From the IMG/VR virus record IMGVR_UViG_3300043331_001462, positions 1 to 40,026 of that record: DNA of 40,026 nucleotides; one strand, 5' to 3'. Numbering within the stretch: the stretch's first letter is position 1; every line of letters begins with the position of its first letter. Origin of the DNA: a virus. The position numbers and the translations under genes are program-made. Positions 9,731-33,290 of the stretch are shown here, piece by piece. The notes below the pieces were generated by a model. It worked only from the letters and a program-made list of their open reading frames with translations. It was not told the origin of the DNA and made no database searches.

Positions 9731-9744
9731 GGGAGGTCACGCGC

Positions 9745-13676: not shown

Positions 13677-13677
13677 C

Positions 13678-14250: not shown

Positions 14251-14255
14251 AAGCT

Positions 14256-14372: not shown

Positions 14373-14384
14373 GGGGGGTGAGCG

Positions 14385-16365: not shown

Positions 16366-16379
16366 GGAGGCCCGCCGCC

Positions 16380-16598
16380 GTGAAGGTCCGCTCCCCCTAC
16401 GACGAGCCGGTCGACCAGCCGTGGCTCGGCCGGGTGGTCAACCCCGGGCAGGTCGTCGACATCCCCGCCGACCTGCTGCCCAACTTCGTGGCCGCCGGAT
16501 GGAAGCCGGCCGACCCCGAGGCCAGCAAGGCCGCCAAGGAACTGGATGCGGCCGCATCGACCGACGCGCCGGCCGCCGGCGCCACGCAGGAAGGCTGA
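16380..16598 (+). CDS. Hypothetical small protein (72 aa)
   Basis: GTG 16380 lies 9 nt after GAGGAGG. Confidence 0.5.
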   Translation: MKVRSPYDEPVDQPWLGRVVNPGQVVDIPADLLPNFVAAGWKPADPEASKAAKELDAAASTDAPAAGATQEG

Positions 16599-16601
16599 TC
16601 G

Positions 16602-17597: not shown

Positions 17598-17599
17598 CC

Positions 17600-18058: not shown

Positions 18059-18450
18059 CCGCGCCAGTGCCGAAAACCCAGATCGCCAAGATGCGGCACC
18101 GGCTGTGCCCGGCCGACCGGGACACCTACGGCGACCCGCCCGGCTCCGACGGCTGGGTGATCTTCGACCCGGACGCGCTGTGCGACCTGCCCGGCTCCAA
18201 GCTGTCCGAGATCGAAAACACCACCGGGTTCCTGATCGCCATGTTCTGGGTGCCCACCCAGCGCTACAGCGCGCTGGGCATGCGCGTCGAGGTGTGGCTG
18301 GCCCGCCGGCTGGCCGGCCTGGTCGACGTGTGGAACGCGTTCGACCCCAAGGTCATGCAGATGGAGTCCGAGAAGATCGACCCGCCTGCCGGCGGTGATG
18401 CCGACCCCCCGGCGCCTGGCTCGCCGCCTGGCTCGCCGGCCGCCCCGTAG
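18055..18450 (+). CDS. Tail assembly chaperone (G-like)
   Basis: GTGA overlap with the upstream gene. Lies directly upstream of the tape measure gene. Confidence 0.65.
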   Translation: MTAPVPKTQIAKMRHRLCPADRDTYGDPPGSDGWVIFDPDALCDLPGSKLSEIENTTGFLIAMFWVPTQRYSALGMRVEVWLARRLAGLVDVWNAFDPKVMQMESEKIDPPAGGDADPPAPGSPPGSPAAP

Positions 18451-18608
18451 CCGCCGCCTACCGCGAGGTCGAGCCGCACTTCACCTACGAGGCCGGGCTG
18501 CCACCCCGCGAGACCCGGCTAATGTCACCGGCCGACATCCGCGGCCACCTGCTGTGGCGCCACCAGCAGATCCAGCAGCGCCAGCTCACCGACCAGCAGG
18601 GGAGGTGA
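18055..18608 (+). CDS. Tail assembly chaperone -1 frameshift product (GT-like)
   Basis: The -1 frame is open over 18399..18608 and encodes a plausible peptide (AWLAAWLAGRPVAAAYREVEPHFTYEAGL...). A candidate slip site C CCC CCG lies at 18405..18411. Confidence 0.45.
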
Positions 18609-18614
18609 CCGCGG

Positions 18615-20633: not shown

Positions 20634-20636
20634 GCC

Positions 20637-22667
20637 GTGGACACCTGCGCGTTCGTCGACTCGATCGGCGAGGTGTACGACGACGTCACCGACGCGTTCG
20701 GCGGCAGCGAATCCAGCACCTGGGGAACCACCGACACCGGCCAGGCCTGGTCCAACGACGGCGGAAGCGCCAGCGACTACTCGGTCGGCTCCGGCACCGG
20801 ATCGCTGTCCCTAGGCTCGGTGGCGGTTTCCCGCCGCCCACACCTGGCCGGAGTCAGCGTCGCCGACGCCGACTCCACCGTCACGATCACCGTGCCCGCG
20901 TTGGCCACCGGCGCGTCCATGTCCGTCGGAGTCACCCACCGCTACGCCGACAGCAGCAACCACCTGCGCGCCGAGCTGGTCTTCCAGACCACCAACGACT
21001 TCATCATCCGGCTCGTGCAGGCCTCCACCAGCGGCGGTGCGCAGATCATGGCCAGCTCCGCCGCCATATCCTCCTACACCGCGGCCAGCAGCTGGAAACT
21101 GCGCGCCCAGATCATCGGCCGCCGCTACCGGGCCAAGGCATGGGCGGCGGCCGACCCGGAGCCGGCCGACTGGAACGTCACCGGCCTAGTCACCGACGCC
21201 GCCGTGGTCGCCGCCGCCGACGCGGTCGGAATCCGCGCCATCCGCGAGACCAGCAACAGCAACGGCACCGTGGCGTTCCTTTTCGACGACTTCACCGTCT
21301 CCAGCCCCAGCCAGATCCGCCTCGATCTCAACGACGGCACCACCTGGGGCCTGGACTACCAGGGCACCAGCCTCGACCCGCCGCCACGCAAGTACGTACG
21401 CGCCGGCGGGCTGATGAGCCAAGGGGAGACCATCCCCGCCGGCGCGTACGCCAACCGCACCTTGCGCCTGTCGCTGGGCCTCAACGCCACCAGCCTCGAC
21501 GACATCGCTACGAAGATCCAGCAGCTGCAGCGCGAGCTGGACCGAACCAGCAACGTGCTGCTGTGGCAGCCCGCCGGCGCCACCCACCCGGTCTACTTCC
21601 GCACGCTGTGGTCGGCCGACCAGCAGATGCAGGTGTTCCCCGGCGACGGCCTCTACCGGGAGATCCGGCTCGAGATGCAGGCCGAGCCGTTCGCGTACGG
21701 GCTGCTGCAAACCCTGGACACGGCAACGGTCACCAACAACCCGGCGTCCAGCTGCTACTTCGACCTGGCGGCCGCCGACATCATCGGCGACGTCGAAACC
21801 CCGGCGATCATGACGTTTGCGTACGCCGGCGTGGAGGACATGGGCCCCACCGCGGTCGGGGTCCGCCGCCACGGAACCCCGTCGCTGATGCCCACCACGC
21901 TGCAGTGCGAGGCCATGACCGGCGGCACCGACACCACCATCCAAGCCAACGACGCCGTGATGTCCGGAAGCGGCCAGAACTACATGCGGTGCACCTACGC
22001 CACCGTGGCCGCGACCATGACGGTGCGGCTGACCAGCTCGACGTTCCCGTCCACCCCCGGCGAGGACGTGCGAGGTACGTACCGGGCGTTCCTGCGCTAC
22101 CGCAAGTCCTCCTCGAGCAACCCCATCAACGTGCAGCTGGGCTGGTCGTTCGGCTCCACCTCGGCCAGCAACCGTGAAGTCGCCCTCGCCTCCACCACCG
22201 ACCGCCGCTGGGTCGACCTGGGTCTGCTCACATATCCGTTCGGCGCCGACCCGATCCACGACCTGTCCGGGGTGGAAATCCCTGCCCGCGGCGGCGTCAT
22301 CACCATCTCCGCCCAACGAACCAGCGGGTCCGGCAACACCGACTTCGATGCCATCGTCCTGGTGCCCGCCGACCCGGCCGACGGCTACTGCCTGGTCACC
22401 TGGCCCACCTCGTCGGGCCCCACGCTCGCCGTCCTGGACGGCAACCGGGAGACCATCTACAACCTCGGCGGATCCGCCGAGGTGTACCCGCGCGAGCTGC
22501 CCAACGTCCGCGGCGTCTTCCCGCACTTGACCCCGAGCCAGGATCACCGCATCGTCGTGCTGCTCAATGCCGGCGGCGGCTCCAGCAGCGACGACATCAC
22601 CGACACCGTCGACGTGACCGTCTCGTACTACCCGCGCTACCTGCTCGTACGTCCGGCCACGACATGA
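20637..22667 (+). CDS. Minor tail protein (distal tail, Dit position) with N-terminal lectin-like domain
   Basis: 676 aa, immediately after the tape measure. The N-terminal ~230 aa look like a LamG/ConA-type module. Confidence 0.75.
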   Translation: MDTCAFVDSIGEVYDDVTDAFGGSESSTWGTTDTGQAWSNDGGSASDYSVGSGTGSLSLGSVAVSRRPHLAGVSVADADSTVTITVPALATGASMSVGVTHRYADSSNHLRAELVFQTTNDFIIRLVQASTSGGAQIMASSAAISSYTAASSWKLRAQIIGRRYRAKAWAAADPEPADWNVTGLVTDAAVVAAADAVGIRAIRETSNSNGTVAFLFDDFTVSSPSQIRLDLNDGTTWGLDYQGTSLDPPPRKYVRAGGLMSQGETIPAGAYANRTLRLSLGLNATSLDDIATKIQQLQRELDRTSNVLLWQPAGATHPVYFRTLWSADQQMQVFPGDGLYREIRLEMQAEPFAYGLLQTLDTATVTNNPASSCYFDLAAADIIGDVETPAIMTFAYAGVEDMGPTAVGVRRHGTPSLMPTTLQCEAMTGGTDTTIQANDAVMSGSGQNYMRCTYATVAATMTVRLTSSTFPSTPGEDVRGTYRAFLRYRKSSSSNPINVQLGWSFGSTSASNREVALASTTDRRWVDLGLLTYPFGADPIHDLSGVEIPARGGVITISAQRTSGSGNTDFDAIVLVPADPADGYCLVTWPTSSGPTLAVLDGNRETIYNLGGSAEVYPRELPNVRGVFPHLTPSQDHRIVVLLNAGGGSSSDDITDTVDVTVSYYPRYLLVRPATT

Positions 22668-24307
22668 GCATCCCCATCCCGCTCGCGGTGCGGATCAGCA
22701 ACTCGCGCACCGACGTGCACGTCACCCGCCACGTCAGCGACCTCGTCTACCGCGAAGTCGCCAAGGGTGGCTACTCGTACTGCACGTTCAGCCTGCACCG
22801 CTCATTGCTCTGGCAGCCCGACGAGCTGCAGTACTACTCGCGGGTGTACGTGTACGACGGCTCCGGCTCCGTCGTGTGGGAGGGCCGGCTGGAGGACCTG
22901 GGCCCGGAGGCCGGCTCCAACGGGCACGTGTGGCGCGTCACCGCGATGGGCCCGTCCGCGCACGCATCAGACATCACCCAGCCGCGCATCTGGGTGGATC
23001 GCGACCTCAGCCGCTGGATCAAGGCCCGGTCGGCGTCGCTGGAGCAACAGACCACCACGGTGTCCGCCGGCGACGATCCGGGCGGCTCCGGCGCCGAATC
23101 TCTGGTCCTCAGCTTCCCCACGTCGATGACCGTGCCGACCAACGGCGCCTGTACCAGCTACTACCTGTACATCGAGTACGCCGGACAGGAGCTGGCCGTC
23201 CTGTACTACGCGTGGGACGCCGGCCTGACCTCCGCCGACTGGCGGATCCGTGGCTTCTCTTCCGGCAGCACGGTGGTGCGCACCCAGTCCGCGTCCACCG
23301 CCGGTGGCGCCGCGGCCGCCGACGTCGTCACCACCGACTTCTCCGTCGGTGACAACCGGCCGCTCGTGCAGTTCCGCTGGGAAGGCGCCGCGTCCGGGAC
23401 CGGCACCGGCGACATCGTCTGGGCCAGCATCAAAACCTTGGTCGTACGCGCCATCACCTACAGCAAGAGCGGCTCGAAAATCACATCCGGCTACTCCTCG
23501 GCCGACATCACCATCCTGGCCTCCGACGTGGTCGCGGACCTGCTCGGCTGCGGGATGCTCGACGAATACGACGGCGCCAACGCCGAGATCGACACGACCA
23601 GCTACGCGATCACTCAGCTGGCCGAGCCGGAAGGCACCACCGCCGCGGCTGTCCTCGACCAGCTGATGGAGTTCGAGCCGGCGTACCGGTGGGGCGCGTA
23701 CGAGTCCAACTCAGCTGGCAAGTACCGGTTCCGCTGGGTGCTGTGGCCCAGCCAGATCCGGTACGAGGCCACCACCGTCGATGACTTCAGCTCGCCGGCC
23801 AGCGCCGACCAACTGTGGAACGCCTGCCGGGCCTTCTACACCACCACCCTGGGGCTGCAAAGCGTACGGGTCACCTCCACCGTGCCCGAGCTGGACGACG
23901 CCGGGTTGACCCGCGAGGCGTCGATCACCCTGCCGCCCGGGTCCACTTCGACTGACGCGACCCGCGCTGCGGAAGAGTTCCTCGAAGAGCACGCCCGGCC
24001 GCCGGCCGCCGGCACACTGAAGATCGCCCGGCCGGTCTTCGACCGGATCCTGGGCCGATGGGTGCAGCCGTGGCAGATCGCGGCCGGCGAGCTGATCTCC
24101 GTGCGGGACGTGCAGCCCACCGCCGCCTCGCTGACAGCCACCGCCCGCGACGGTCTTCAGGTGTTCCGCATCGCCTCCCGCGAATACCGGACCAGCGACG
24201 CGGCCGCCACGCTCGAGCTCGACGAGTACTCGCTGTCCACCGCCCGCGCGCTGGCCGCCGCGGCTGCCCCCCGCCGCAAGGGCAAGATCGGCCGAAGGAG
24301 GCTGTGA
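22664..24307 (+). CDS. Minor tail protein (Tal position)
   Basis: 547 aa, with an ATGA overlap to the upstream gene. Confidence 0.75.
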   Translation: MSIPIPLAVRISNSRTDVHVTRHVSDLVYREVAKGGYSYCTFSLHRSLLWQPDELQYYSRVYVYDGSGSVVWEGRLEDLGPEAGSNGHVWRVTAMGPSAHASDITQPRIWVDRDLSRWIKARSASLEQQTTTVSAGDDPGGSGAESLVLSFPTSMTVPTNGACTSYYLYIEYAGQELAVLYYAWDAGLTSADWRIRGFSSGSTVVRTQSASTAGGAAAADVVTTDFSVGDNRPLVQFRWEGAASGTGTGDIVWASIKTLVVRAITYSKSGSKITSGYSSADITILASDVVADLLGCGMLDEYDGANAEIDTTSYAITQLAEPEGTTAAAVLDQLMEFEPAYRWGAYESNSAGKYRFRWVLWPSQIRYEATTVDDFSSPASADQLWNACRAFYTTTLGLQSVRVTSTVPELDDAGLTREASITLPPGSTSTDATRAAEEFLEEHARPPAAGTLKIARPVFDRILGRWVQPWQIAAGELISVRDVQPTAASLTATARDGLQVFRIASREYRTSDAAATLELDEYSLSTARALAAAAAPRRKGKIGRRRL

Positions 24308-25056
24308 TGGTCTGGCACCTCAACCGCGCCCTCACCAACCTGCGCGCCGAGGTCAACGCCCGGTGGCCCAACCGGGACCGCACCAGCGACGGCACCATCG
24401 GCGACGCCGCCCACCAGGCCACCAGCAGCGACCACAACCCCGACCTGGACGGGTCGGTCGACGCCTGGGACATGGACATCGACGGCGTCGACGTCTGGCA
24501 CATCATCGAGCGTTTCGAGCAGCACGAGGCCGCCCGCTACTGGATCTACAACCGGCAGATCGCCAGCCGCTCGAACGGCTGGAAGCGGGAGCGCTACACC
24601 GGCGCCAACCCGCACGACAAGCACGTGCACTTCAACACCCGCGAGGGCTTCGAGGACTCGGACGACTCGTGGGGCATCGGCGAGGAGGACGACATGCCCA
24701 CCGCGAAAGAGTTCGTCGACGAGCTGCTCGAGCGGGAGCTGCCGTCGGAAACGCTCGGCACATTCACCGTCGGCGACCACCTCAAGGGTGGCCGGCTGGC
24801 CGCCCGCGACGTTGCGGCGTTGCGCGCCGAGCTGGTCGCCCGCGACGTCGCGGAACGGGCCCGTGACGCAGGCACCGCCGAGCTGCTCTCCCAGGTGCTC
24901 GCGGCCGCCGGCAATCCGCTGTCTGACGAGCAGTTCGCTCAGGCGCTCGACGCGCTGCGCGCTGCGGCCGCCGGCGCGGCCGAGACCGCTGTGTCCCGGA
25001 TCGAGGCGAAGCTGGCCGCGGCCGCGCGCGCCGAGGCCGACGCGCTCGGCGGCTGA
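24307..25056 (+). CDS. LAS/M15-like zinc peptidase (endolysin or tail-associated lysin) with Ala-rich coiled-coil tail
   Basis: GDAAHQATSSDHNPD...VDAWDMD...DKHVHFN fits an H..D / HxH metallopeptidase pattern. Lies between the tail genes and the holin-like genes. Confidence 0.55.
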   Translation: MVWHLNRALTNLRAEVNARWPNRDRTSDGTIGDAAHQATSSDHNPDLDGSVDAWDMDIDGVDVWHIIERFEQHEAARYWIYNRQIASRSNGWKRERYTGANPHDKHVHFNTREGFEDSDDSWGIGEEDDMPTAKEFVDELLERELPSETLGTFTVGDHLKGGRLAARDVAALRAELVARDVAERARDAGTAELLSQVLAAAGNPLSDEQFAQALDALRAAAAGAAETAVSRIEAKLAAAARAEADALGG

Positions 25057-26451: not shown

Positions 26452-26494
26452 GAAGAGCGCCCCTCCGCCCCCCTCGGGCGGAGGGGCGCTCTTC
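26452..26494. terminator. Perfect 19-bp-stem hairpin (5-nt loop), potentially bidirectional
   Basis: GAAGAGCGCCCCTCCGCCC ccctc GGGCGGAGGGGCGCTCTTC. Confidence 0.7.
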
Positions 26495-26502
26495 GTCTCC
26501 CC

Positions 26503-26679
26503 TCAGGCCGGATCCTGCCGGCGCACCGCATCGAGCCAGCGGATCAGCACCTCGATGGTGTCGAGGTCGGTGAACCGGGCGAAGTGGCGCACGTACCGCT
26601 CGTCGCGCTCGTCGAGGTCCACGCCGCGCAGCGCCTCCCGCAGCTTCGCCTCCTTGGCGCGCTCACCCCGGCTGGCCAC
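26503..26679 (-). CDS. Hypothetical small helical protein (58 aa)
   Basis: GTG 26679 lies 4 nt after the upstream stop. It is the shortened form of ORF 26503..26751. Confidence 0.4.
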   Translation of the reverse strand: MASRGERAKEAKLREALRGVDLDERDERYVRHFARFTDLDTIEVLIRWLDAVRRQDPA

Positions 26680-26683
26680 CCCG

Positions 26684-26875
26684 TCAGCCCGCAAGAAACT
26701 GGATATCGAGGCGCTTCCACCATGGCAACGCGCGCTCGGCGCGGATGACACGGTCGTTGGCGTCGAGGTACGCGTCGGTCTCTTCCGTGCCGCCGGCGGT
26801 AGCCGCCAGGGCCTTGATGGCCTCGCGCAGCTCGGCGCGGGCGATGTGGTCTTGGTCGCTGAACAGCTTGAGCAT
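26684..26875 (-). CDS. Hypothetical small protein (63 aa)
   Basis: The ATG is preceded by GAAGGAGA. The protein begins MLKLFSDQDHIARAELREAIKAL. Confidence 0.6.
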   Translation of the reverse strand: MLKLFSDQDHIARAELREAIKALAATAGGTEETDAYLDANDRVIRAERALPWWKRLDIQFLAG

Positions 26876-26886: not shown

Positions 26887-27063
26887 TCACCGGGCGCGTC
26901 GAAGGTGGAGGCCGGCGCCGACCAGGACGAGGCCAGCGACCAGGTTGCCTGCGCCGATGACCAGAACGCCGAGCGTGCCGCCGAGGGAGGCACCCAGCGC
27001 CGTGAAGCCGGTGGCGCAGGTGAGGGCGGAGGTTGCGAGGCGGATGATCTGCGTCGTGTTCAT
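26887..27063 (-). CDS. Small Gly/Ala-rich 2-TM membrane protein (58 aa), not in the ORF track
   Basis: The ATG lies 5 nt after GGGAGGA. Sequence is MNTTQIIRLATSALTCATGFTALGASLGGTLGVLVIGAGNLVAGLVLVGAGLHLRRAR. First gene downstream of the operator region. Confidence 0.6.
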   Translation of the reverse strand: MNTTQIIRLATSALTCATGFTALGASLGGTLGVLVIGAGNLVAGLVLVGAGLHLRRAR

Positions 27064-27104
27064 CGTCGTCCTCCCTGGAGCGGGGCTTCCTCTTTCGCTC
27101 CGAA

Positions 27105-27171
27105 CATTACCCTAGGGTGATAGATTCGTCAACACCCTAGGGTGTTCGGATTATGCCACCCTAGGGTAATG
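27105..27171. promoter_or_regulatory. Three palindromic operators ACCCTAGGGT in a divergent promoter region
   Basis: CATTACCCTAGGGTG (27105..27119), ACACCCTAGGGTGT (27132..27145) and CACCCTAGGGTAATG (27157..27171). The outer copies are mutual reverse complements. Centres are 25 and 24 bp apart. Each copy carries TAGGGT (TANNNT) on both strands. Confidence 0.75.
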
Positions 27172-27179
27172 TCTGGCTC

Positions 27180-27443
27180 ATGGATAAGAGTGCTGTGGAA
27201 CACCTCGCCAAGCAGATCGCTCGGCTGACCAAACTGGCCCCGATCGAGCGGGCCCGGCTGGCCCGCGACCTGGTCGACGTTGCGAAGACCACGCTGGCCG
27301 CGGCCGGCGACGCTGCCGTCGCCGAGGCGGTCGCTGGCAGCTCGTACGCCGAGGTCGCCGCGGCCTTGGGCGTGTCCACCTCGGCGGTCAACAAGGCGGT
27401 CAGCCGACACCGGGCTCGACCCGCCGTAGGCAGTGTGGACTAG
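27180..27443 (+). CDS. Small HTH regulator (87 aa), candidate operator-binding repressor
   Basis: C-terminal HTH is SYAEVAAALGVSTSAVNKAVSRH. The ATG lies only 12 nt downstream of a TAGGGT hexamer, so the mRNA would be near-leaderless. Confidence 0.7.
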   Translation: MDKSAVEHLAKQIARLTKLAPIERARLARDLVDVAKTTLAAAGDAAVAEAVAGSSYAEVAAALGVSTSAVNKAVSRHRARPAVGSVD

Positions 27444-27451
27444 CCACGCCC

Positions 27452-27736
27452 TCACTTCGACCGCGCATCCTCGTGCAGCACGTGCAGCTTGTTGAAGATC
27501 CACCGGCCGGTGCGCAGTCGGCGGCCGGTGCCCTTGCATCGCGGGCACCGGCGAAACGCCCGGCCGGTCGGCGAGCGCCGCTTGCCGCTGCCCGCGCACC
27601 GGCGGCAGTTCGCGTACGGCCAGAACCAGCAGGCGATCACGTAGCAGATCGCCCACGCCAGCCCGGCCACCGTCAGGTAGAAGGCGCCGCGGGTCGGGTC
27701 GCCCTGCTGTGTAGCGGTAGCGGCGCTCAACCACAC
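27452..27736 (-). CDS. Membrane protein with DnaJ-type CxxCxGxG zinc finger (94 aa)
   Basis: GTG lies 7 nt after AGGAGG. One TM helix is followed by CRRCAGSGKR...CPRCKGTGRR. Confidence 0.7.
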   Translation of the reverse strand: MWLSAATATQQGDPTRGAFYLTVAGLAWAICYVIACWFWPYANCRRCAGSGKRRSPTGRAFRRCPRCKGTGRRLRTGRWIFNKLHVLHEDARSK

Positions 27737-27881
27737 CGGATGTGCCTCCTGACGGGGGTAGCGGGCCTGCCTGCCGGCGTGCCGCTACGCGCTACACGGC
27801 CGCGTCGGCGCAGGTCAGCGTGCGCGCAGGCCGTAGCGGGGGCTGTAGCGCAGCCGCTACGCCTACCTCGGTGTCCGCTAC
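27711..27881. promoter_or_regulatory. Candidate clt-like locus: 9 copies of GTAGCG/CGCTAC
   Basis: GTAGCG at 27711, 27717, 27758, 27833 and 27844. CGCTAC at 27783, 27790, 27855 and 27876. Lies directly downstream of the translocase gene stop (27888). Confidence 0.55.
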
Positions 27882-27887
27882 ACCGAT

Positions 27888-30041
27888 TCATCGATCCTCC
27901 TCGCTGGTTCGACGCTCCAGTGCGCGGCGCAGCGCGGCCAGATGCACGCCCTTGAGGACCTTGTTGTCGATGCGGACGTTCTTGCTCTCGATGCCCAGGT
28001 TCAGCGAGCGCAGCGTGTTGGAGATCGCGTCCGGGGTGGCGTTGGCGTACCGCTCGGGCAGCTGGTCGGCCATGCGCTCGGCCAGCTGCTGCCACGACAG
28101 AGCGGTCTCGGACGGCAGGAACGCATCGAGAGCATCCGCGAGCGGATCGCGTGCCTGCGCGCCGACCGTCTCGCCGCCGGCCATGCCGTCGAGCAGGCCG
28201 GCCCGCTCGCGCATCCGGCGCGCGGCGTGCAGGATCTTCTCGGCGTCCTGCCCGTCGGCCAGGTAGGTGCGCACGGTGGCGTTGGGCACCGGGGCGTCGT
28301 AGAGGATGCCGACGCCGCGGTACTCGTCGCCGGAGGGCAGCGCGCTGGAGTCGTAGCCCTCGGAGTAGGCGCCGCCACCGAGCACCAGGTCAGAGACCTG
28401 CCAGGCGCCCGTCTTGAGCGCAAAGCGGGTCAGGTGGTTGTCGCGGAAGTCCGTGAACAGCTTGGCCACCTTGCCGGTGGAGCCGATCCCAGACGGACGC
28501 TGAGTGGAGTCCAGCAGGATGACGCCGACCGACGGCCCGACCTTGACCAGGAAGACCAGCAGCTCGGCGATCTCCCGGTCGGTCTCCTCGTCGCCGGTGT
28601 TCAGGTACTCCTGGAACTCATCCAGGACGATCACCCAGACGGGCATGCGGTAGCGCGGGTTGCGGGCGATGTCCCTGGTCAGCTTGCCTTCCGGGCACAC
28701 GTCGGTGGGCAGCTCGGACAGGCGGGCGTTGCGCTGCAGGACGTCGCGCTTGGCGGCGCGCAGGGTGGCGCGCAGGTTCTCGATCGGATCGCCCTGGATC
28801 CGGTCGGGCAACAGCCCGAAGCCGAAGGTGTAGGCGACCAGGGCGAACTTGCGCCAGTCCGGGGAGCCCTTGCCGTCGAACACGGACAGCCGCACGTACG
28901 GATCGAGGGCGGCGAAAAGCGCCAGCAGGCGGGCGGTGAACGTCTTGCCCTTGCGCGGCTGCGCGCCGACCAGCACAGAAGTGAAGATCAGCGGCAGCAT
29001 GACGCGGCGGCCGCGCTCGTCGACGCCCAGCGGCGCGGCCCGCCAGATGTCGCGCGGCTTGCAGTCCAGCAGCGGCGTACGGCCGGCCGGGATGGACAGC
29101 GGGTCGACGTCGGCGACCCACAGCAGGTGCCGGCGCTGGGAGGTCTTGTCCCTGGTCAGGTACACCTGGGACAGCGACACGTCCAGGCCGGAGGCCAGCT
29201 TCTCGCGGGCCTTCATCGCGTCGGAGAACGTCACCCCGTACGGCAGGTCGACCACCACCTGCGATCCTGCGTCGAGCCGGTCGCGGGACATCTTCGACCC
29301 GAACTTGACCTGCTGGCCGGGCTTGTCCGGGTGGCCCAGGCCGGCGGAGTAGTACGCGCGCAGCACCACGTCGGCGTTGAGCACCCGGTGCCGGTTGGTG
29401 ACCACCGCGGCGGACACGATCGGCCGGTCGGCCGGTCGGCCCAGGTGCGCCAGGATCGGCACCAGGACCACCAGGACGACCCACTTCACCCAGCCCGGCG
29501 CGCCCAGCAGCAGCCACGCCACCGCGCCGACCAGGACCAGGACCTCGAGCGCCAACCACACGCCGCGGGCGCCGCGCGCCCGGCGGGCCTCAGTGTGCAG
29601 CTTCACCCACGTCTCGGCGTCGTTCTTGGTCGCCGCGTGCTGGCGCAAGCTGTGCGACTCCATCACCCAGTACCAGGCCAGCTGCCGGCCGGCCAGGCGC
29701 AGCAGCCCGACCACCGCCCACCACGCGGCCAGCAGCAGGTACAGCGGCGAGCGCACGGCGTGGTAGCTGAACCGGTAGCCGGTCAGCTTGGCCGTACGTA
29801 CGCCCGCGCGGCGTACGCCCTGCACGGTGCGCAGGTGCTCCGGGATGACCGGCCGCCGGTCCTGGCGCACCTTGGCCACCGAGTCGACCAGCACCGGCGT
29901 GGCCGGGCCCGGATCGTCGTCCAGGGCGACCTCGAAGCTGGTGTCGTACTCCTCCGGCAACGCCTCCGGTCGCGGCGTCACCTCGCCTGTGTCGGCGGCC
30001 GGCACGGCCACCTCGCGGCCAGGCTCGATCGGCTCGGTCAT
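27888..30041 (-). CDS. FtsK/SpoIIIE-family DNA translocase, TraB-like (717 aa)
   Basis: N-terminal TM helices are present. Walker A is GAQPRKGKT and Walker B is VWVIVLDEFQ. The C-terminus is wHTH-like. ATG 30041 follows AGGGGGCGG, and the longer ORF runs to 30122. Confidence 0.9.
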   Translation of the reverse strand: MTEPIEPGREVAVPAADTGEVTPRPEALPEEYDTSFEVALDDDPGPATPVLVDSVAKVRQDRRPVIPEHLRTVQGVRRAGVRTAKLTGYRFSYHAVRSPLYLLLAAWWAVVGLLRLAGRQLAWYWVMESHSLRQHAATKNDAETWVKLHTEARRARGARGVWLALEVLVLVGAVAWLLLGAPGWVKWVVLVVLVPILAHLGRPADRPIVSAAVVTNRHRVLNADVVLRAYYSAGLGHPDKPGQQVKFGSKMSRDRLDAGSQVVVDLPYGVTFSDAMKAREKLASGLDVSLSQVYLTRDKTSQRRHLLWVADVDPLSIPAGRTPLLDCKPRDIWRAAPLGVDERGRRVMLPLIFTSVLVGAQPRKGKTFTARLLALFAALDPYVRLSVFDGKGSPDWRKFALVAYTFGFGLLPDRIQGDPIENLRATLRAAKRDVLQRNARLSELPTDVCPEGKLTRDIARNPRYRMPVWVIVLDEFQEYLNTGDEETDREIAELLVFLVKVGPSVGVILLDSTQRPSGIGSTGKVAKLFTDFRDNHLTRFALKTGAWQVSDLVLGGGAYSEGYDSSALPSGDEYRGVGILYDAPVPNATVRTYLADGQDAEKILHAARRMRERAGLLDGMAGGETVGAQARDPLADALDAFLPSETALSWQQLAERMADQLPERYANATPDAISNTLRSLNLGIESKNVRIDNKVLKGVHLAALRRALERRTSEEDR

Positions 30042-30217
30042 GACCGCCCCCTGGCCGCGCCCTTGACCGCAGCGAAGCCCAGGTGCACCTGAGCCGGCAG
30101 CAGCAGCAGATCGGGCCGCCACTGGCTACCGGCCTCGGCGTCGGCCAGCAGCTTTGCGGCCGTCTGGGTGTGCTCGTCGGCGGTCATCGCCAGGATCTGC
30201 TCAACGTGTTCGTTCAC
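30038..30217 (-). CDS. Hypothetical small protein (59 aa), not in the ORF track
   Basis: GTG lies 5 nt after GAGGTGA. It has 4-nt overlaps with both neighbouring genes (GTGA and ATGA). Confidence 0.5.
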   Translation of the reverse strand: MNEHVEQILAMTADEHTQTAAKLLADAEAGSQWRPDLLLLPAQVHLGFAAVKGAARGRS

Positions 30218-31020
30218 GGGGTCACCTCGGTCAGGTCCGGGACGTGGCCGTTGACCGGCGTGGCCGGCCGCGTCGCGGCCAGATGGCGGCGCGCGGTGCG
30301 CTCGGACACGGACAGCCGCTTGGCCACGGTGGCCGCGTCGATGGCCGGGTCCTTGGCCACCAACTTGGCCACCAACTTGGCCGTGTCCGTGGCCACCGGT
30401 GGCCGGACAGGTGGCCGCAGCTTGGCCGGCTCGATGGCCACGTGGCCATCCATGGCCACAGGCTCAGATGGCCGCTCGATGGCCACGTGGCCATCCATGG
30501 CCACAGGCTCAGATGGCCGCTCGATGGCCGCGGGCGTGGCCGCGGTGACCGCCGCAGGCGCGGTGTCCGTGGCCACATGGCCGGCCACCGGCTCGCGGTC
30601 CACTGGCCGCCGCCGGCGACTGGTGGCGATTAGCGCGCCCGTGGCCATCACCATCAGGCCGTCGACCGCGAGCGGGCCGATCAACACCGTCAGTCGGTCG
30701 TCGTTGTAGAAGGCCAGCAGCCCGGACAGATGCCGGTACGACACGACGGCGGCAACCCCGGCGACCGGCAGCAGCCCAGCGAAGCGCAGCAGAACCCAGC
30801 GCCTGCCAGCTGGCCATTCGGTCCGCGCAAAGATCTCCACCGCGACGAACAGGGCGAGGGGCCAGAACACGGCACCTACGACCGCGCCGGCCGGGGGCTG
30901 CCATCCGTCCGGCGCGTCATTCGGGGGGACGTACGAGTGGGCCACGTTGGCCGCGATCGACGCCGCGCCACCTAGGAGCGCTCCGAGGTACGCCCATCCT
31001 CGGCCGGTCACGCGGGTCAC
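30214..31020 (-). CDS. DUF2637-like membrane protein with repeat linker and C-terminal HTH
   Basis: VVSYRHLSGLLAFYNDDRLTVLIGPLAVDGLMVMA matches the remembered DUF2637 pattern. The C-terminal HTH is VAKRLSVSERTARRHL. Confidence 0.7.
   Translation of the reverse strand: MTRVTGRGWAYLGALLGGAASIAANVAHSYVPPNDAPDGWQPPAGAVVGAVFWPLALFVAVEIFARTEWPAGRRWVLLRFAGLLPVAGVAAVVSYRHLSGLLAFYNDDRLTVLIGPLAVDGLMVMATGALIATSRRRRPVDREPVAGHVATDTAPAAVTAATPAAIERPSEPVAMDGHVAIERPSEPVAMDGHVAIEPAKLRPPVRPPVATDTAKLVAKLVAKDPAIDAATVAKRLSVSERTARRHLAATRPATPVNGHVPDLTEVTP
30430..30530. repeat. 45-bp tandem repeat x2.2 inside the DUF2637-like gene
   Basis: CTCGATGGCCACGTGGCCATCCATGGCCACAGGCTCAGATGGCCG at 30430..30474 and 30475..30519, plus a partial copy. 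It encodes IERPSEPVAMDGHVA twice. Confidence 0.9.
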
Positions 31021-31292
31021 CGGTCACGCACCTCCTCGACGGGCCGGGTCAGCTGGCGCATGGACACGGCCACGATGATGCAGACCAGGCCGGTCCCGGC
31101 GGCCAGGCAGCCGATGGCCATGGCCAGATGGCCGAGCCCCGCGGCGCCGCCGGCGGACAGCCACGCGCTCGCGAACAACGCGGCCATGACGGCCATCACT
31201 GTGGCCACCGTGACCACGGGGCGGCGGACAGACACTGGCCGGCCGCCGGACAGCTGGCCGCGCTCGGCGGCCTTCACACGCACATCGGTCAT
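31017..31292 (-). CDS. Membrane protein (2 TM, 91 aa), first gene of the transfer operon
   Basis: ATG at 31292. GTGA overlap with the next gene. Confidence 0.6.
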   Translation of the reverse strand: MTDVRVKAAERGQLSGGRPVSVRRPVVTVATVMAVMAALFASAWLSAGGAAGLGHLAMAIGCLAAGTGLVCIIVAVSMRQLTRPVEEVRDR

Positions 31293-31377: not shown

Positions 31378-31626
31378 ATGAGCCAACTCGCGAGACTTGG
31401 GGGTCGATCGGTGCCGGACGACGAGGAGTGGATCCCGGTGGGGCAGGCAGCGCGCCGACTGGGCCTGCACCCAGACAAGGTGCGTGCCCTCGCCGACTCC
31501 GGTCAGATTCGCTCTTGGCGGCCGCCCACCACCGGCCCGGGCCATGCACACCGGCGAGTGAGCTCGGCCGACGTGGAGCGCATCCGCCGAGAGATGCTGG
31601 GTGACCAGGGTGGAAGCCCCACCTGA
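31378..31626 (+). CDS. Excisionase-family (MerR-like) HTH protein
   Basis: WIPVGQAARRLGLHPDKVRALADSGQIRSWR...HRRVSSADVERI. An alternative GTG start at 31411 follows GGGGG. Confidence 0.7.
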   Translation: MSQLARLGGRSVPDDEEWIPVGQAARRLGLHPDKVRALADSGQIRSWRPPTTGPGHAHRRVSSADVERIRREMLGDQGGSPT

Positions 31627-31639: not shown

Positions 31640-32548
31640 TCAATCATCCCAAAGAGACGCACCCCGCGTCCGGCCATGGCCGGACGCGGGGGTGCATTCT
31701 GTGTGTGCGTGTGTCCTGCAGAGGGCTACGCGACGGCGGGGAGCGTGCGGACGGCTAGTCGACGCTCCTCGCTGCTCACCTGGGTGTACCGCTCCGTCGT
31801 GTGCGATCGACGCGTGACCGAGAATCTCCTGCGTCGCGCGCAGGTTGCGCGAGCGGCGGTACGTCTCGCTGCCGCACCAGTGCCGCAGCATGTGCATCGT
31901 CACGTCTCGGAAGCCGAGCCGGGTCAGCTGGCGGCTGCCGTACATCGACAGCTTGTGCGCAGCCACGTGCGGCTCGTACCCCGGCAGGTGGAAGATCCGA
32001 CCGAGCGGCAGCGGCTCGACGAGGTGCCAGACCACCGGGTGCGTAGGCACCTCGCGCACCTTGTCGCCCTTGCCGCGGATCCACATCGACTCTTCGGTGA
32101 CGTCCTCCCGATCTAGGGTGACGATCTCCAGGCAGCGCAGGCCGGCGTACGCCGCGAGCCCGAAGTACGTCCGGTAGGGCGCCACCGCACGCCGCATGAT
32201 CTGGCCCAAGGCGGCGGTCGTCACCGGCCGCGGCGGAGGCTTCGGCACCCGGATGCGCGGCAGGCCGACGGACGGGTCCTGGTCGACCAGGCCCATCGTG
32301 AACTTCCACCGGCACCAGGCCTGGATGTGGAACAGGTACACGGCCCTGGTCGCGCGAGACAGACCAGGACGGGCCAGCCAGCTGGCCAGCCGTTGTGTCG
32401 TGGTTGCAGCGGGGTCGGTCCCCAGATACGTCGAAATGGCCCGGACCACTCGGGTCCGCGCCTGGATCGTTCTGGGTGACTGCCCTGCCGCTCGGAGGTG
32501 CTCTACGTGCACAGTCAGGTGCTCGGGAGCACAGCGAAGGGCTTCCAT
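31640..32548 (-). CDS. int: Tyrosine recombinase / integrase, apparently frameshifted before the catalytic Tyr
   Basis: RGKGDKVREVP, HMLRHW and LGHASIA lie in the main frame. The canonical continuation TTERYTQVSSEERRLAVRTLPAVA* lies in another frame (stop 31726..31728) after one extra nt near 31799..31804. Confidence 0.8.
   Translation of the reverse strand: MEALRCAPEHLTVHVEHLRAAGQSPRTIQARTRVVRAISTYLGTDPAATTTQRLASWLARPGLSRATRAVYLFHIQAWCRWKFTMGLVDQDPSVGLPRIRVPKPPPRPVTTAALGQIMRRAVAPYRTYFGLAAYAGLRCLEIVTLDREDVTEESMWIRGKGDKVREVPTHPVVWHLVEPLPLGRIFHLPGYEPHVAAHKLSMYGSRQLTRLGFRDVTMHMLRHWCGSETYRRSRNLRATQEILGHASIAHDGAVHPGEQRGASTSRPHAPRRRVALCRTHAHTECTPASGHGRTRGASLWDD
31660..31694. terminator. Bidirectional hairpin between convergent genes
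   Basis: CACCCCGCGTCCGGCC at GGCCGGACGCGGGG(G)TG, about 16-bp stem. Followed by a TG-rich tract at 31699..31714. Confidence 0.65.
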
Positions 32549-32578: not shown

Positions 32579-32938
32579 TTATGCCGCGTTTGGCCAGGCG
32601 TCGCCACCCGGTCGTACCAGGTCGGATCGCCTAGGTGGCCTAGTTGCGCTACGTGCGCCAATCGCAGCGGAGCGTAGCCAAGAACTAGTACGTACGCCTC
32701 GGTACGCAGTCCGTCTGTCTGTGAGTTCGTCCCGCGTGGGCAAGAGGTCTTGGACCTCAACTCCCAGCTCGCTGGCGATGCGCTCCAGGTCGTTGAGGTC
32801 GATCGCCTGCCGGCCGTTGAGGCGATAGGACACCCACGCGTTGGAGACGTTTAGGCGCCGAGCGAGCTGCTGCCCTGTGATCCGGCGCCGGGCCATCATG
32901 GCCCGGATTTCTTCCGCCACTAGATCCGTAAGAGCCAT
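32579..32938 (-). CDS. XRE-family HTH repressor (CI-like position)
   Basis: The start was chosen by alignment to the divergent paralog (MALTDLVAEEIRAMMARRRITGQQLARRL...). The ORF is open up to 33010. The last ~50 codons have poor GC3. Confidence 0.7.
   Translation of the reverse strand: MALTDLVAEEIRAMMARRRITGQQLARRLNVSNAWVSYRLNGRQAIDLNDLERIASELGVEVQDLLPTRDELTDRRTAYRGVRTSSWLRSAAIGARSATRPPRRSDLVRPGGDAWPNAA
32774..32806. repeat. 33-bp inverted repeat, arm 1 (partner 33204..33236)
   Basis: GGCGATGCGCTCCAGGTCGTTGAGGTCGATCGC is the exact reverse complement of 33204..33236. Confidence 0.9.
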
Positions 32939-33065
32939 AGGTCTATCCGTCGGTGTGGTGGTCATACCGCGATGTTCGGCCGTCTGGACGTAACCGTCAA
33001 GGTGATTCACAAAATCTTGGCATCAGTCTCTTGACGGCTTTAGCTATAGCGTAAACCATGGCGCT

Positions 33066-33290
33066 ATGCCCGACAGCTTGCAGACATACGTTGCGGCCGA
33101 GATTCGCGCCGAGATGGCTCGCCGCCGGATCACAGGGCAACAACTAGCCGGCGCGCTAGGACGCAGCAACGCCTGGATCTCAGTGCGGCTCGCTGGCAAG
33201 CAAGCGATCGACCTCAACGACCTGGAGCGCATCGCCGATGCGCTGGACGTGTCGGCCGACCAACTCCTGCCAGCGAGGTCCGCAGCATGA
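33066..33290 (+). CDS. XRE-family HTH regulator (Cro-like position), paralog of 32579..32938
   Basis: EIRAEMARRRITGQQLAGALGRSNAWISVRLAGKQAIDLNDLERIADAL. It is divergent from the other XRE gene. Confidence 0.8.
   Translation: MPDSLQTYVAAEIRAEMARRRITGQQLAGALGRSNAWISVRLAGKQAIDLNDLERIADALDVSADQLLPARSAA
33204..33236. repeat. 33-bp inverted repeat, arm 2
   Basis: GCGATCGACCTCAACGACCTGGAGCGCATCGCC. Confidence 0.9.

What the first reader, a model, noticed from the sequence alone, without database searches (positions are those of the whole stretch)
26887..27443. Symmetric triple-palindrome operator switch between a small HTH gene and a small membrane-protein cassette
Seen in the sequence:
- The 116-bp divergent region contains three copies of ACCCTAGGGT, with centres 25 and 24 bp apart.
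- The middle copy is a 14-bp perfect palindrome (ACACCCTAGGGTGT).
- The outer copies (CATTACCCTAGGGTG and CACCCTAGGGTAATG) are exact reverse complements of each other, so the region is mirror-symmetric.
- Each palindrome supplies TAGGGT, which matches the actinobacterial -10 pattern TANNNT, on both strands.
- The rightward TAGGGT ends 12 nt before the ATG of an 87-aa HTH protein, so its mRNA would be nearly leaderless.
- The leftward TAGGGT precedes a leader carrying GGGAGGA, then a 58-aa Gly-zipper 2-TM protein and two further small proteins.

Inference:
- This is an autoregulated repressor/operator circuit analogous to the kil-kor pairs of Streptomyces plasmids, or to an immunity switch.
- It would control a potentially toxic or exclusion-type membrane peptide.
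- It is separate from the XRE pair near the integrase, so the element appears to carry two independent switches.
Basis: partly seen in the sequence, partly recalled or inferred. Interest (0 to 1): 0.66.

Follow-up and report, generated by a model that had tools for sequence, protein, structure and literature searches.

The report
Prophage repressor with three shared operators
A prophage carries two back-to-back promoters covered by three copies of one palindrome, next to a small DNA-binding protein that very probably binds them; this promoter–operator unit and its protein recur in related Micromonospora-type phages, so it is a real but conventional repressor circuit built from an undescribed protein family.

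Summary
ACCCTAGGGT occurs exactly three times in the 40-kb window, all within 27109-27167, against 0.01 copies expected by chance.

Comparison with about 18 related phage and prophage loci shows what the region is. A conserved ~44-bp promoter module reads ACCCnnGGGT-GTTGAC-N9-(ATC)ACCCnnGGGT-AATGT. It is a -35 TTGAC, a 17-nt spacer and a -10 TAATGT, with one palindrome just upstream of the -35 (centre about -41.5) and one in the spacer (about -16.5).

The window holds two such modules back to back, sharing the middle palindrome:
- A strong leftward promoter (TTGACG-17-TAATGT) drives three small genes.
- A weaker rightward promoter has its -10 seven nt before the ATG of the 87-aa HTH gene, so that mRNA is leaderless.

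The HTH gene and the modules are tightly linked. There are 26 palindrome pairs in 184 kb against 1.2 expected, and all but one lie within 1.6 kb of an HTH homologue. Scans using DNA patterns alone recovered only HTH-bearing loci among high-GC hits.

Its TAGGGT -10 is not, and neither is kil-kor membership. Toxicity of the 58-aa membrane protein is untested. The cargo genes are not conserved, and the divergent layout is unique to the window.

Verdict: a new member of a known kind, of moderate interest.

The parts
27109..27118 (.). Left operator O_L, core ACCCTAGGGT (16-nt arm ACATTACCCTAGGGTG, 27104-27119). It lies in the spacer of the leftward promoter, centre about -16.5.
   Evidence: It aligns with the -10-proximal palindrome of 22 modules.
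27134..27143 (.). Middle operator O_M, core ACCCTAGGGT inside the 14-bp perfect palindrome 27132-27145. It is shared by both promoters: its centre is about -41.5 for the leftward promoter and -40.5 for the rightward one, abutting both -35 hexamers.
   Evidence: It aligns with the -35-proximal palindrome of the modules on either strand.
27158..27167 (.). Right operator O_R, core ACCCTAGGGT (16-nt arm CACCCTAGGGTAATGT, 27157-27172). It lies in the spacer of the rightward promoter.
27127..27132 (-). Predicted -35 of the leftward promoter P_left: TTGACG, followed by a 17-nt spacer.
   Evidence: Read. TTGAC at this position is the consensus of the aligned modules. No experimental start site is available.
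27104..27109 (-). Predicted -10 of P_left: TAATGT. The predicted start is near 27096-27098, giving a leader of about 34 nt.
   Evidence: The hexamer is kept as TANNNT in 22 of 22 modules.
27145..27150 (+). Predicted weak -35 of the rightward promoter P_right: TTCGGA (3 of 6 matches to TTGACA) with a 16-nt spacer.
   Evidence: row win_right.
27167..27172 (+). Predicted -10 of P_right: TAATGT, 7 nt before the A of ATG 27180, which implies a leaderless mRNA.
   Evidence: The same geometry (-10, then 6-7 nt, then ATG) is seen in L108 module 1, L101_a and three L104 modules.
27180..27443 (+). Gene for the 87-aa all-helical HTH protein, the putative operator-binding repressor. The HTH is residues 56-79 and the recognition helix carries the family motif NKAVSRH.
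27069..27075 (-). Shine-Dalgarno sequence GGGAGGA, 6 nt upstream of the ATG of the first cassette gene.
26887..27063 (-). Cassette gene 1: a 58-aa hydrophobic, Gly/Ala-rich protein with a C-terminal RRAR. It is probably membrane-inserted.
   Evidence: GC3 0.86; one homologue, 69% identity; hydropathy.
26684..26875 (-). Cassette gene 2: a 63-aa soluble helical protein. The ATG at 26875 follows GGAG; the longest ORF starts at GTG 26890.
   Evidence: No family match.
26503..26751 (-). Cassette gene 3. The longest ORF is 82 aa. The likely start is GTG 26679 (58 aa), 4 nt after the stop of gene 2.
   Evidence: No family match.
26452..26494 (.). Hairpin with a 19-bp perfect stem that ends the leftward cassette and the convergent plus-strand genes. 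It looks like a bidirectional terminator.
   Evidence: -47 to -50 kcal/mol, z = -4.96, 0 of 200 shuffles as stable.

Best explanation
The 116-bp region contains two back-to-back promoters of the housekeeping-sigma type.

- P_left is strong: TTGACG, 17 nt, TAATGT. It transcribes a three-gene cassette (58-aa membrane protein and two small soluble proteins) through a leader of about 34 nt with a good ribosome-binding site, ending at the hairpin 26452-26494.
- P_right is weaker: TTCGGA, 16 nt, TAATGT. It starts at or next to the A of ATG 27180 and gives a leaderless mRNA for the 87-aa HTH protein.

Each promoter is overlaid by two copies of one palindromic operator, core ACCCnnGGGT (full form about ATnACCCnnGGGTnAT). 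One copy fills the spacer up to the -10, centred near -16.5. The other abuts the -35, centred near -41. The middle copy serves both promoters.

The HTH protein most likely binds these operators as a dimer and shuts both promoters. This gives negative autoregulation of its own gene together with repression of the cassette.

The unit is a rearranged copy of a portable promoter-operator-plus-regulator cassette common in Micromonospora-type phages. In those phages the HTH gene is co-directional with its neighbours: one palindrome sits at its start and a two-palindrome promoter follows its stop, driving variable cargo.

Shown: the sequence anatomy, its conservation, and the linkage to the HTH gene.
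Inferred: the transcription start sites, that this HTH is the binding protein, that it is a dimer, and the sign of regulation.
Unknown: what the cargo does.
For: 1. Non-random anatomy.

2. A conserved module. 22 modules from 12 loci align to nnnATnACCCTAGGGTGTTGACnnnnCCATCACCCTAGGGTAATGT. The ACCC and GGGT arms, the TTG of the -35 and a TANNNT -10 are invariant or nearly so, while the central dinucleotide varies, as expected for an uncontacted dyad centre (raw instances).

3. Linkage to the HTH gene.
- 26 palindrome pairs at 23-26 bp spacing occur in 184 kb of HTH-bearing loci, against 1.2 in shuffles. All but one chance-like pair (window 8896) lie within 1.6 kb of the HTH gene.
- The 20-kb loci L098-L101 have no modules elsewhere.
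- Scans by DNA pattern alone returned L096, L097 and L108, each with the HTH gene adjacent. The only other hits, L109 and L110, are low-GC chance matches.
- A protein-pattern scan added L111, L112 and L115, all with modules. The weak HTH-only matches L116 and L117 have none.

4. An autoregulatory site. Homologues carry a palindrome at their own start, TACCCTnnGGTcATG in L096, L098, L099, L100, L112 and L115, or a full module 6-7 nt before the ATG in L108, L101 and L104.

5. Recognition helix. The NKAVSRH motif is invariant across the seven closest homologues, and K72, R76 and H77 are at least 90% conserved across the 47-member alignment. This parallels the invariant ACCC/GGGT arms. The most divergent operator set (ATACC-N4-GGTAT, L101) goes with the variant helix TINKAVTRNR.

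6. Repressor rather than activator. The -35, spacer and -10 are near consensus, so no activator is needed, and one operator occupies the spacer. This follows from established promoter geometry.

7. The protein is a confident four-helix HTH: pLDDT 92.5, with a long helix 21-53 ahead of the HTH at 56-79.

8. Within the window the regulon is local. No other ACCCnnGGGT site lies in an intergenic region.
Against: - There are no binding, transcript or phenotype data of any kind.
- The HTH match to every curated family is below cut-off, and fold searches give only weak hits with E of 0.17 or more. Dimerisation and DNA binding are therefore inferred from the fold alone.
- Linkage shows that the gene and the modules travel together, not that the protein binds them.
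- P0044 has a changed recognition helix (SAVSNATTRHR), yet its locus L104 keeps ACCCTAGGGT. Protein-operator covariation is therefore weak.
- A generic sigma-70 scan did not call either promoter, because TAATGT matches TATAAT at only 3 of 6 positions. The -10 assignment rests on the actinobacterial TANNNT rule and on conservation.
- An operator centred near -41 is also a classic activator position.
Confidence: 0.6

Rival explanations
1. The promoters and operators are the same, but the HTH protein is a dual regulator in the manner of lambda cI at PRM or the C proteins of restriction-modification systems. Bound at the -41 site it recruits RNA polymerase. Bound at the spacer site it represses. 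This would give delayed or pulse-like expression of itself and of the cassette.
For: - The centres lie near -41.5 and -40.5, the classic class II activator position (geometry).
- The HTH's own promoter has a poor -35 (TTCGGA) and is leaderless, like PRM and many C-protein genes.
- The best, though insignificant, fold hits include the phage Mu activators Mor and C, and sigma region 4.
- C-protein literature surfaced (PMC2632904, PMC2691842).
Against: - The cargo promoters have near-consensus -35, spacer and -10, so they need no activator.
- The two operators of a module have essentially the same core, so graded occupancy is not evident.
- The fold matches are not significant (E of 0.77 or more).
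- HTH_3, the fold of C proteins and cI, is below cut-off (E = 0.035).
Confidence: 0.15
2. The palindromes are operators for some other protein, such as the prophage's main immunity repressor (one of the XRE paralogues beside the integrase) or a host factor. On this reading the 87-aa HTH gene is simply one of the genes under that control.
For: - The window has a separate divergent XRE pair, and the related phages carry large XRE-family proteins.
- The operator arms are nearly constant across phages from different hosts, as a conserved host factor would require.
- L104 keeps the operator despite a changed recognition helix.
Against: - Modules are confined to within 1.6 kb of the HTH gene in 20-kb loci. 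They are absent from the rest of the early regions and from the XRE and integrase intergenic regions.
- Pattern-only scans of viral and metagenome collections found the module only beside HTH homologues.
- The XRE-type regulators differ among the loci while the HTH is constant.
Confidence: 0.15
3. The palindromes are mainly recombination or inversion substrates, and the inverted HTH gene reflects a programmed invertible switch rather than transcriptional control.
For: - In the closest relative, L108, the HTH gene has the opposite orientation relative to the FtsK-like and zinc-ribbon genes.
- Identical palindromes can support inversion by recombination.
Against: - No palindrome or inverted repeat lies at the 3' end of the HTH gene in the window. 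Only 8 bp separate it from the next stop codon.
- No invertase is encoded nearby.
- The palindromes keep a fixed register with the -35 and -10 hexamers in 22 of 22 modules. Transcription explains this and recombination does not.
Confidence: 0.03

Closest known systems
Lambda OR region (OR1-OR2-OR3 between PR and PRM, with cI and Cro)
   Same: - Three palindromic operators with centres 23-25 bp apart lie between two divergent promoters.
- One promoter is strong and one is weak.
- The regulator's own mRNA is leaderless.
- The regulator gene faces away from the genes it controls.
(The lambda facts are from established knowledge; the window geometry is.)
   Different: - Only one regulator is encoded. 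The leftward genes are not DNA-binding proteins.
- The protein is 87 aa, with no cleavable or oligomerising C-terminal domain, and is not XRE-type.
- All three operator cores are identical, so no graded affinity is visible.
- The real immunity switch of this prophage is more probably the XRE pair beside the integrase.
KorA (TrfB) of IncP plasmids RK2/RP4, and the kil-kor logic in general, including KorB/kilB of Streptomyces plasmid pIJ101
   Same: - A small helical HTH regulator is inferred to bind a short palindrome placed over the core elements of several strong promoters, including its own.
- The controlled genes include small membrane proteins and lie beside an FtsK-like transfer-type gene.
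- The KorA HTH superposes locally on the model (rmsd 1.4 A over 38 residues, 34% identity).
   Different: - There is no detectable homology. Pfam KORA gives E = 0.018 and 15.7 bits against a cut-off of 26.7. The Foldseek E-value is about 1.7. tblastn found no match in 72,556 plasmids.
- Here each promoter carries two operators (near -41 and -16) rather than one.
- The context is a tailed prophage.
- Lethality of the controlled genes is untested.
Controller (C) proteins of type II restriction-modification systems
   Same: - An HTH protein of about 80 aa.
- Paired palindromic operators sit just upstream of its own gene, which is often leaderless.
- It is autoregulated, and the circuit times expression of a potentially harmful neighbour (PMC2632904 and PMC2691842, found).
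   Different: - C proteins are XRE-type five-helix proteins. Here HTH_3 is below cut-off.
- C-box operators are adjacent, about 15 bp centre to centre, not 24-25 bp apart.
- No restriction enzyme lies next to this unit.
Repeated repressor sites of actinophages: L5 gp71 stoperators and the conserved inverted repeats of phiC31
   Same: One phage-encoded regulator has several near-identical sites spread over a phage genome of a high-GC Gram-positive host, and some of these overlap early promoters (from established knowledge).
   Different: - Stoperators are asymmetric, number in the dozens and lie within transcribed regions. The phiC31 repressor is a large multi-isoform protein.
- Here the sites are symmetric, come in fixed pairs welded to a -35/-10 pair, number 2-6 per genome and cluster around the regulator gene.
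- The HTH has no match in 50,697 sequenced phage records.

Membership tests
Lambda-type CI/Cro immunity switch | Three tandem palindromic operators between divergent promoters | tested here: met
   Operators at 27109, 27134 and 27158, with centres 25 and 24 bp apart, lie between P_left and P_right.
Lambda-type CI/Cro immunity switch | Two antagonistic DNA-binding regulators encoded divergently across the operators | tested here: not met
   The leftward genes (58, 63 and about 58-82 aa) have no HTH or other DNA-binding match in Pfam, PHROGs, NCBIfam or PADLOC.
Lambda-type CI/Cro immunity switch | Repressor of the XRE/HTH_3 class with a C-terminal oligomerisation or S24 domain | tested here: not met
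   The protein is 87 aa. HTH_3 gives E = 0.035, below the cut-off. The model has four helices and no extra domain.
kil-kor systems (RK2 KorA/TrfB; Streptomyces plasmid Kor repressors) | Sequence or profile homology of the regulator to a Kor family | tested here: not met
   PF16509 KORA gives 15.7 bits against a cut-off of 26.7. No tblastn hit in PLSDB plasmids at E <= 1e-3. Foldseek KorA E is about 1.7.
kil-kor systems (RK2 KorA/TrfB; Streptomyces plasmid Kor repressors) | Operators overlapping both the regulator's own promoter and the promoter of the controlled gene | tested here: met
   This is met by position only. Palindromes overlap the predicted -35 and spacer of both promoters. No binding data exist.
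kil-kor systems (RK2 KorA/TrfB; Streptomyces plasmid Kor repressors) | The controlled (kil) gene is lethal or inhibitory without the regulator | not testable with these tools
   This needs expression of 26887-27063 alone. The sequence shows only a hydrophobic 58-aa protein with one homologue.
Restriction-modification controller (C) proteins | XRE-type HTH, adjacent C-box operators and a neighbouring restriction endonuclease | tested here: not met
   HTH_3 is below cut-off. The operator spacing is 24-25 bp. No nuclease lies next to the unit.
Sigma-70 family / ECF sigma factors (the automatic annotation of some homologues) | Region 2 plus region 4, with length above about 150 aa | tested here: not met
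   There is only a sub-threshold region-4-like HTH: PF08281 gives 23.3 bits against a cut-off of 25.7, over residues 51-79. The protein is 87 aa with four helices.
Undescribed family defined here: small NKAVSRH-type HTH proteins of Micromonospora-type phages with ACCCnnGGGT paired-operator promoters | Full-length similarity to the family profile, including the recognition-helix motif | tested here: met
   The window protein is 42-65% identical to 49 relatives. NKAVSRH is invariant in the closest seven. The exhaustive search found 617 representative clusters at E <= 1e-3.
Undescribed family defined here: small NKAVSRH-type HTH proteins of Micromonospora-type phages with ACCCnnGGGT paired-operator promoters | At least one promoter module with two ACCCnnGGGT palindromes 23-26 bp apart, in register with -35 and -10 hexamers, within about 1.6 kb of the gene | tested here: met
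   The window has two such modules sharing one palindrome. The same is true for 12 of 14 other loci and for 3 of 3 further loci. L004 has atypical spacing and L107 has none.

The most novel reading that the evidence does not exclude
The HTH protein and its portable two-operator promoter may form a second regulatory layer shared across a family of Micromonospora phages, independent of the main XRE-type immunity switch. A resident prophage's HTH would silence the matching promoters of any incoming relative, because the operator arms are nearly identical between phages. That would be a cross-immunity or exclusion layer. In the resident prophage the same protein would hold variable, possibly harmful, cargo such as the 58-aa membrane protein at a set low level. 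In the window, convergent read-through from the FtsK-like operon, which has no terminator in the 8-bp gap, could knock down the HTH by transcriptional interference and release the cassette on induction.
Probability: 0.12. Interest if true: 0.6.

Novelty: new member of a known kind. Interest (0 to 1): 0.4.

Why it matters
- It gives a testable operator-regulator pair for a group of actinomycete phages that has no cultured or annotated representative. The HTH and the FtsK-like protein have no hit in 50,697 phage records, and the HTH has none in 72,556 plasmid records.
- It assigns a likely role to an uncharacterised HTH family of several hundred clusters, some of which are currently auto-annotated as sigma-factor-like.
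- The 44-bp module is a compact, strong, probably repressible promoter with either leaderless or leadered output. Together with its 87-aa regulator it could serve as an expression switch for Micromonospora and related antibiotic producers.
- Biologically it is a conventional autoregulated repressor circuit. The open question is what the variable small cargo genes do.

Tried and rejected
**Searches that found nothing**
- blastn and tblastn of the region, the HTH and the FtsK-like protein against sequenced phages gave no match. The HTH against plasmids gave no match. The element therefore cannot be tied to a described phage or plasmid. Only the terminase finds distant actinophage relatives, at 33% identity or less.
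- A module pattern scan of 185,579 representative genomes gave 0 hits. A protein-pattern scan of the same collection gave 600 candidates, none confirmed. The host genome and close relatives are not in that collection.
- Full-text literature searches for the motif and for Micromonospora prophage operators found nothing relevant. One search gave only the C-protein analogy. One search gave nothing on FtsK/DUF2637 prophages.

**Leads that did not hold**
- A short pattern, ACCCNNGGGTAATGTT, in viral contigs gave 86 hits, mostly low-GC chance matches. Four proteobacterial contigs (L015, L028, L065, L079) have look-alike TTACCnnnnGGTAA operators, but these surround classical CI(S24)/Cro pairs and have no HTH homologue. 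This is analogy, not homology.
- The contig of P0052, the only homologue of the 58-aa protein, could not be fetched.
- Genes downstream of the modules in relatives share no similarity with the window's cassette and match no family. The cargo is therefore not part of the conserved unit.
- Sequence and fold searches of the HTH against the PDB and viral structure libraries returned only insignificant generic HTH hits.
- A 5' leader hairpin is present in several relatives, significant only in L002, but not in the window's leader.

**Hypotheses rejected**
- TAGGGT as the -10, because it is not conserved.
- An invertible switch, because no flanking repeat exists.
- A restriction-site explanation for CCTAGG, because the central bases vary among relatives.
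- Actinobacterial LexA or DasR boxes, because the sequences do not match (own knowledge).
Full report
**1. The observation**

The intergenic region 27064-27179 is 116 bp long. It lies between a minus-strand 58-aa ORF (ATG at 27063) and a plus-strand 87-aa ORF (ATG at 27180).

ACCCTAGGGT occurs at 27109, 27134 and 27158 and nowhere else in the 40,026-bp window, even with one mismatch allowed. Dinucleotide shuffles give a mean of 0.01 exact copies, and base composition predicts 0.035. CTAG itself is three-fold depleted in the window.

The middle copy is the 14-bp palindrome 27132-27145. The outer copies are exact 16-nt reverse complements. The only qualification is that the two spacers differ (15 and 14 nt, different sequence), so the symmetry is not complete.

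**2. Context**

The window has 71% G+C. The following parts can be assigned:
- 8159-25056: a plus-strand module of a tailed phage, with terminase, portal, major head, tail and a lysis-region protein.
- 26452-26494: a hairpin with a 19-bp perfect stem.
- Then, in order, the minus-strand three-gene cassette, the plus-strand HTH gene, and a minus-strand block:
  - a 94-aa zinc-ribbon membrane protein;
  - a 744-aa FtsK/SpoIIIE-like protein;
  - a DUF2637/HTH protein;
  - a 91-aa membrane protein;
  - a tyrosine integrase.
- 32579-33290: a divergent pair of XRE paralogues.

The finding therefore sits in a prophage, between the lysis end and an FtsK-type block. It is distinct from the XRE pair.

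**3. What the palindromes belong to**

Homologues of the 87-aa protein number 6 by single-sequence search, 50 by profile, and 617 representative clusters by exhaustive search. Those with organism names are from Micromonospora. I fetched their loci and found the same element beside nearly all of them. Its consensus is ACCCnnGGGT-GTTGAC-N9-(ATC/ATG)ACCCnnGGGT-AATGT.

Aligning 22 instances gives nnnATnACCCTAGGGTGTTGACnnnnCCATCACCCTAGGGTAATGT. The arms of both palindromes, the TTG of the -35 and a TANNNT hexamer are invariant or nearly so, while the central dinucleotide is free.

This is a housekeeping-type actinobacterial promoter with a -35 TTGACN, a 17-nt spacer and a -10 TANNNT (the consensus is from established knowledge). 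One palindrome is welded in front of each hexamer.

Read on the minus strand, the window gives ACCCTAGGGTGTTGACGAATCTATCACCCTAGGGTAATGT, a perfect module. Read on the plus strand it gives ACCCTAGGGTGTTCGGATTATGCCACCCTAGGGTAATGT. This has the same frame but a poor -35 (TTCGGA) and a 16-nt spacer.

The region is thus two modules back to back, sharing the distal palindrome.

**4. Correcting the -10**

In relatives the centre of the palindrome is TT, AA, CG, CC, TG or AC, so TAGGGT is not conserved. A TANNNT hexamer is present in all 22 modules. In 19 of them it begins at the last T of the palindrome. In the three L104 modules it lies 2 nt further downstream.

With TAATGT at 27167-27172, the A of the ATG at 27180 is 7 nt downstream, which is the expected start point. 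The HTH mRNA would be leaderless. The same geometry of -10, then 6-7 nt, then ATG recurs in L108 module 1, L101_a and three L104 modules.

For the leftward promoter the predicted start is near 27096-27098. This leaves a leader of about 34 nt carrying GGGAGGA 6 nt before the ATG.

**5. Link between the module and the HTH gene**

- Density and position. In 184 kb from 15 HTH-bearing loci there are 26 palindrome pairs at 23-26 bp spacing, against 1.2 in shuffles. All but one chance-like pair inside the terminase gene lie within 1.6 kb of the HTH gene. The 20-kb loci L098-L101 have none elsewhere.
- Pattern-only scans. Scanning whole collections with a DNA pattern alone returned L096 and L097 (viral contigs) and L108 (metagenome), each with an HTH homologue directly adjacent. 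It also returned two low-GC chance hits.
- Protein-pattern scan. A scan of viral contigs added L111, L112 and L115, each with a palindrome at the HTH start and a module just after its stop. Two weak HTH-only matches had none.
- Usual layout. The common arrangement is tandem: [palindrome or module]-HTH-[module]-cargo. In six homologues the palindrome abuts the start codon as TACCCTnnGGTcATG.
- Recognition helix. The NKAVSRH motif is invariant across the seven closest homologues. K72, R76 and H77 are at least 90% conserved across the 47-member alignment. The more divergent homologues vary at some of these positions. This matches the constant ACCC/GGGT arms.
- Covariation. The most divergent operator (ATACC-N4-GGTAT, L101) accompanies a variant helix, INKAVTRNR. 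Against this, L104 keeps ACCCTAGGGT with a changed helix. Covariation is therefore suggestive at best.

**6. The closest relative and the origin of the triple**

L108 shares the FtsK-like protein (68.5% identity over 724 aa), the zinc-ribbon protein (48%) and the HTH (62%). There the order is FtsK, zinc-ribbon, a 151-aa membrane protein, module 1, HTH (leaderless), module 2, and a 55-aa gene, all on one strand.

In the window the HTH gene points the other way. The 151-aa gene is absent, and the two modules have merged into a three-operator divergent region. None of the roughly 18 other loci shows this divergent form. It is a rearranged variant of a common cassette, not a separate invention.

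The cargo is not conserved:
- The window's three cassette proteins have no homologue in any related locus.
- They match no Pfam, PHROG, NCBIfam or PADLOC family.
- The 58-aa protein has a single homologue, at 69% identity, in 5.8 billion sequences.
- That protein is hydrophobic and Gly/Ala-rich with a basic tail, which is compatible with membrane insertion.

**7. The protein**

No curated family reaches its cut-off. The best match is sigma-70 region 4 at 23.3 bits against a cut-off of 25.7. KORA and Cro give E of 0.015-0.018.

The AlphaFold2 model is confident (pLDDT 92.5). It has helices at 3-18, 21-53, 56-63 and 67-79, that is, two long N-terminal helices followed by a helix-turn-helix. Fold searches of the PDB and of viral models give nothing significant. 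The top hits are Mu Mor (E = 0.77), KorA's HTH (rmsd 1.4 A over 38 residues) and sigma region 4. The profile search against PDB sequences is likewise generic.

It is too short to be a sigma factor, although some homologues are annotated that way.

**8. Mechanism**

I commit to the following, at 0.6 overall:
- The 87-aa protein binds the palindromes as a dimer.
- An operator filling the spacer up to the -10 (centre about -16.5) and another abutting the -35 (about -41) block RNA polymerase.
- Because the hexamers and the spacer are near consensus, the promoters should fire without help. The protein is therefore a repressor.
- The result is negative autoregulation of the weak, leaderless P_right and repression of the strong P_left.

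What is shown is the anatomy, the conservation and the linkage. What is inferred is the start sites, the identity of the binding protein, dimerisation and the sign of regulation.

The rivals are:
- a dual activator/repressor acting from the -41 site (0.15);
- a different binding protein (0.15);
- recombination sites (0.03).

One further inference concerns the 8-bp gap between the convergent stop codons of the HTH gene and the zinc-ribbon gene. It holds no hairpin. Transcription of the FtsK-like operon could therefore run antisense through the HTH gene into the cassette. This is untested.

**9. Comparison with known systems**

- Lambda OR. The geometry resembles it: three operators 23-25 bp apart, divergent strong and weak promoters, and a leaderless regulator mRNA. 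But there is only one regulator, and it is not XRE-type.
- KorA and kil-kor. The logic resembles a small repressor with a palindrome over several strong promoters, including its own. Homology was tested and not found.
- C proteins of restriction-modification systems. The shared features are small size, paired operators and a leaderless autoregulated gene. The fold class, the operator spacing and the neighbouring genes all differ.

The unit therefore works like these systems without belonging to any of them. It belongs to an undescribed family of phage HTH regulators with their own operator-promoter module.

**10. Verdict**

- The circuit is supported.
- The -10 is corrected to TAATGT.
- Kil-kor membership is not supported.
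- Cargo toxicity is unknown.

The system is a new member of a known kind. Interest is 0.4. The value lies in a clean, testable operator-regulator pair and a compact regulated promoter for a poorly studied phage group, not in a new principle.

Noticed in passing
window 31640-32548 (-): The integrase ORF seems frameshifted near its 3' end. After LGHASIA the reading frame turns into low-complexity sequence, while the expected catalytic-tyrosine motif (HTTERYTQV) is in another frame. This is either a decaying prophage or a sequencing error.
   Followed up: partly
window 32579-32965 (-) and 33066-33290 (+): A divergent pair of paralogous XRE-type HTH genes lies beside the integrase. They are about 50% identical to the XRE gene next to the integrase in L005. 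This pair is probably the prophage's main immunity switch.
   Followed up: partly
window 27452-31292 (-): The block contains an FtsK/SpoIIIE-like protein, a DUF2637/HTH protein and small membrane proteins. It looks like an actinomycete conjugative-element transfer module but sits inside a tailed prophage. L101 (a 55-kb phage contig) and L005 show the same mix. The FtsK-like protein has no match in sequenced phages, and the neighbouring HTH has none in plasmids.
   Followed up: partly
window about 31410-31625 (+): A small ORF between the integrase and the 91-aa gene reads like a MerR/excisionase-type HTH (…WIPVGQAARRLGLHPDKVRALADSGQIRSW…). This was seen by eye in the sequence printed and was not scanned against any family.
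   Followed up: no
window 26452-26494: A hairpin with a 19-bp perfect stem (about -47 kcal/mol, z = -4.96) lies between the convergent lysis-side genes and the small cassette. It has no clear U-tract on either strand and is probably a bidirectional terminator.
   Followed up: yes
window 27443-27452: Only 8 bp and no hairpin separate the convergent stop codons of the HTH gene and the zinc-ribbon gene. The FtsK-like operon could therefore read antisense through the HTH gene.
   Followed up: partly
L001 6300-6320, L002 5480-5500, L005 2925-2945, L100 9345-9365, L108 3470-3490: Many leadered modules carry a conserved box GGTGTCAG-N-GAC, often a short hairpin, right after the -10. Its GGGTGT part resembles an operator half-site. 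It is absent from the window's leader. The hairpin is significant only in L002.
   Followed up: partly
L108 3425-3440: In the closest relative the stop codon of the HTH gene is the TAG at the centre of the next operator (ACCC-TAG-GGT). The coding sequence and the operator therefore overlap.
   Followed up: no
L015, L028, L065, L079 (viral contigs, 52-61% GC): Proteobacterial-type phage contigs carry look-alike operators TTACCnnnnGGTAA. They occur in sets of two or three, 24-26 bp apart, over -35 and -10 hexamers, and flank a CI-like (S24 peptidase) gene and a Cro-like gene. This is convergent architecture; no homologue of the 87-aa protein is present.
   Followed up: partly
window, whole: CTAG is about three-fold under-represented in the window, 33 observed against 105 expected, yet each operator has CTAG at its centre.
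   Followed up: no
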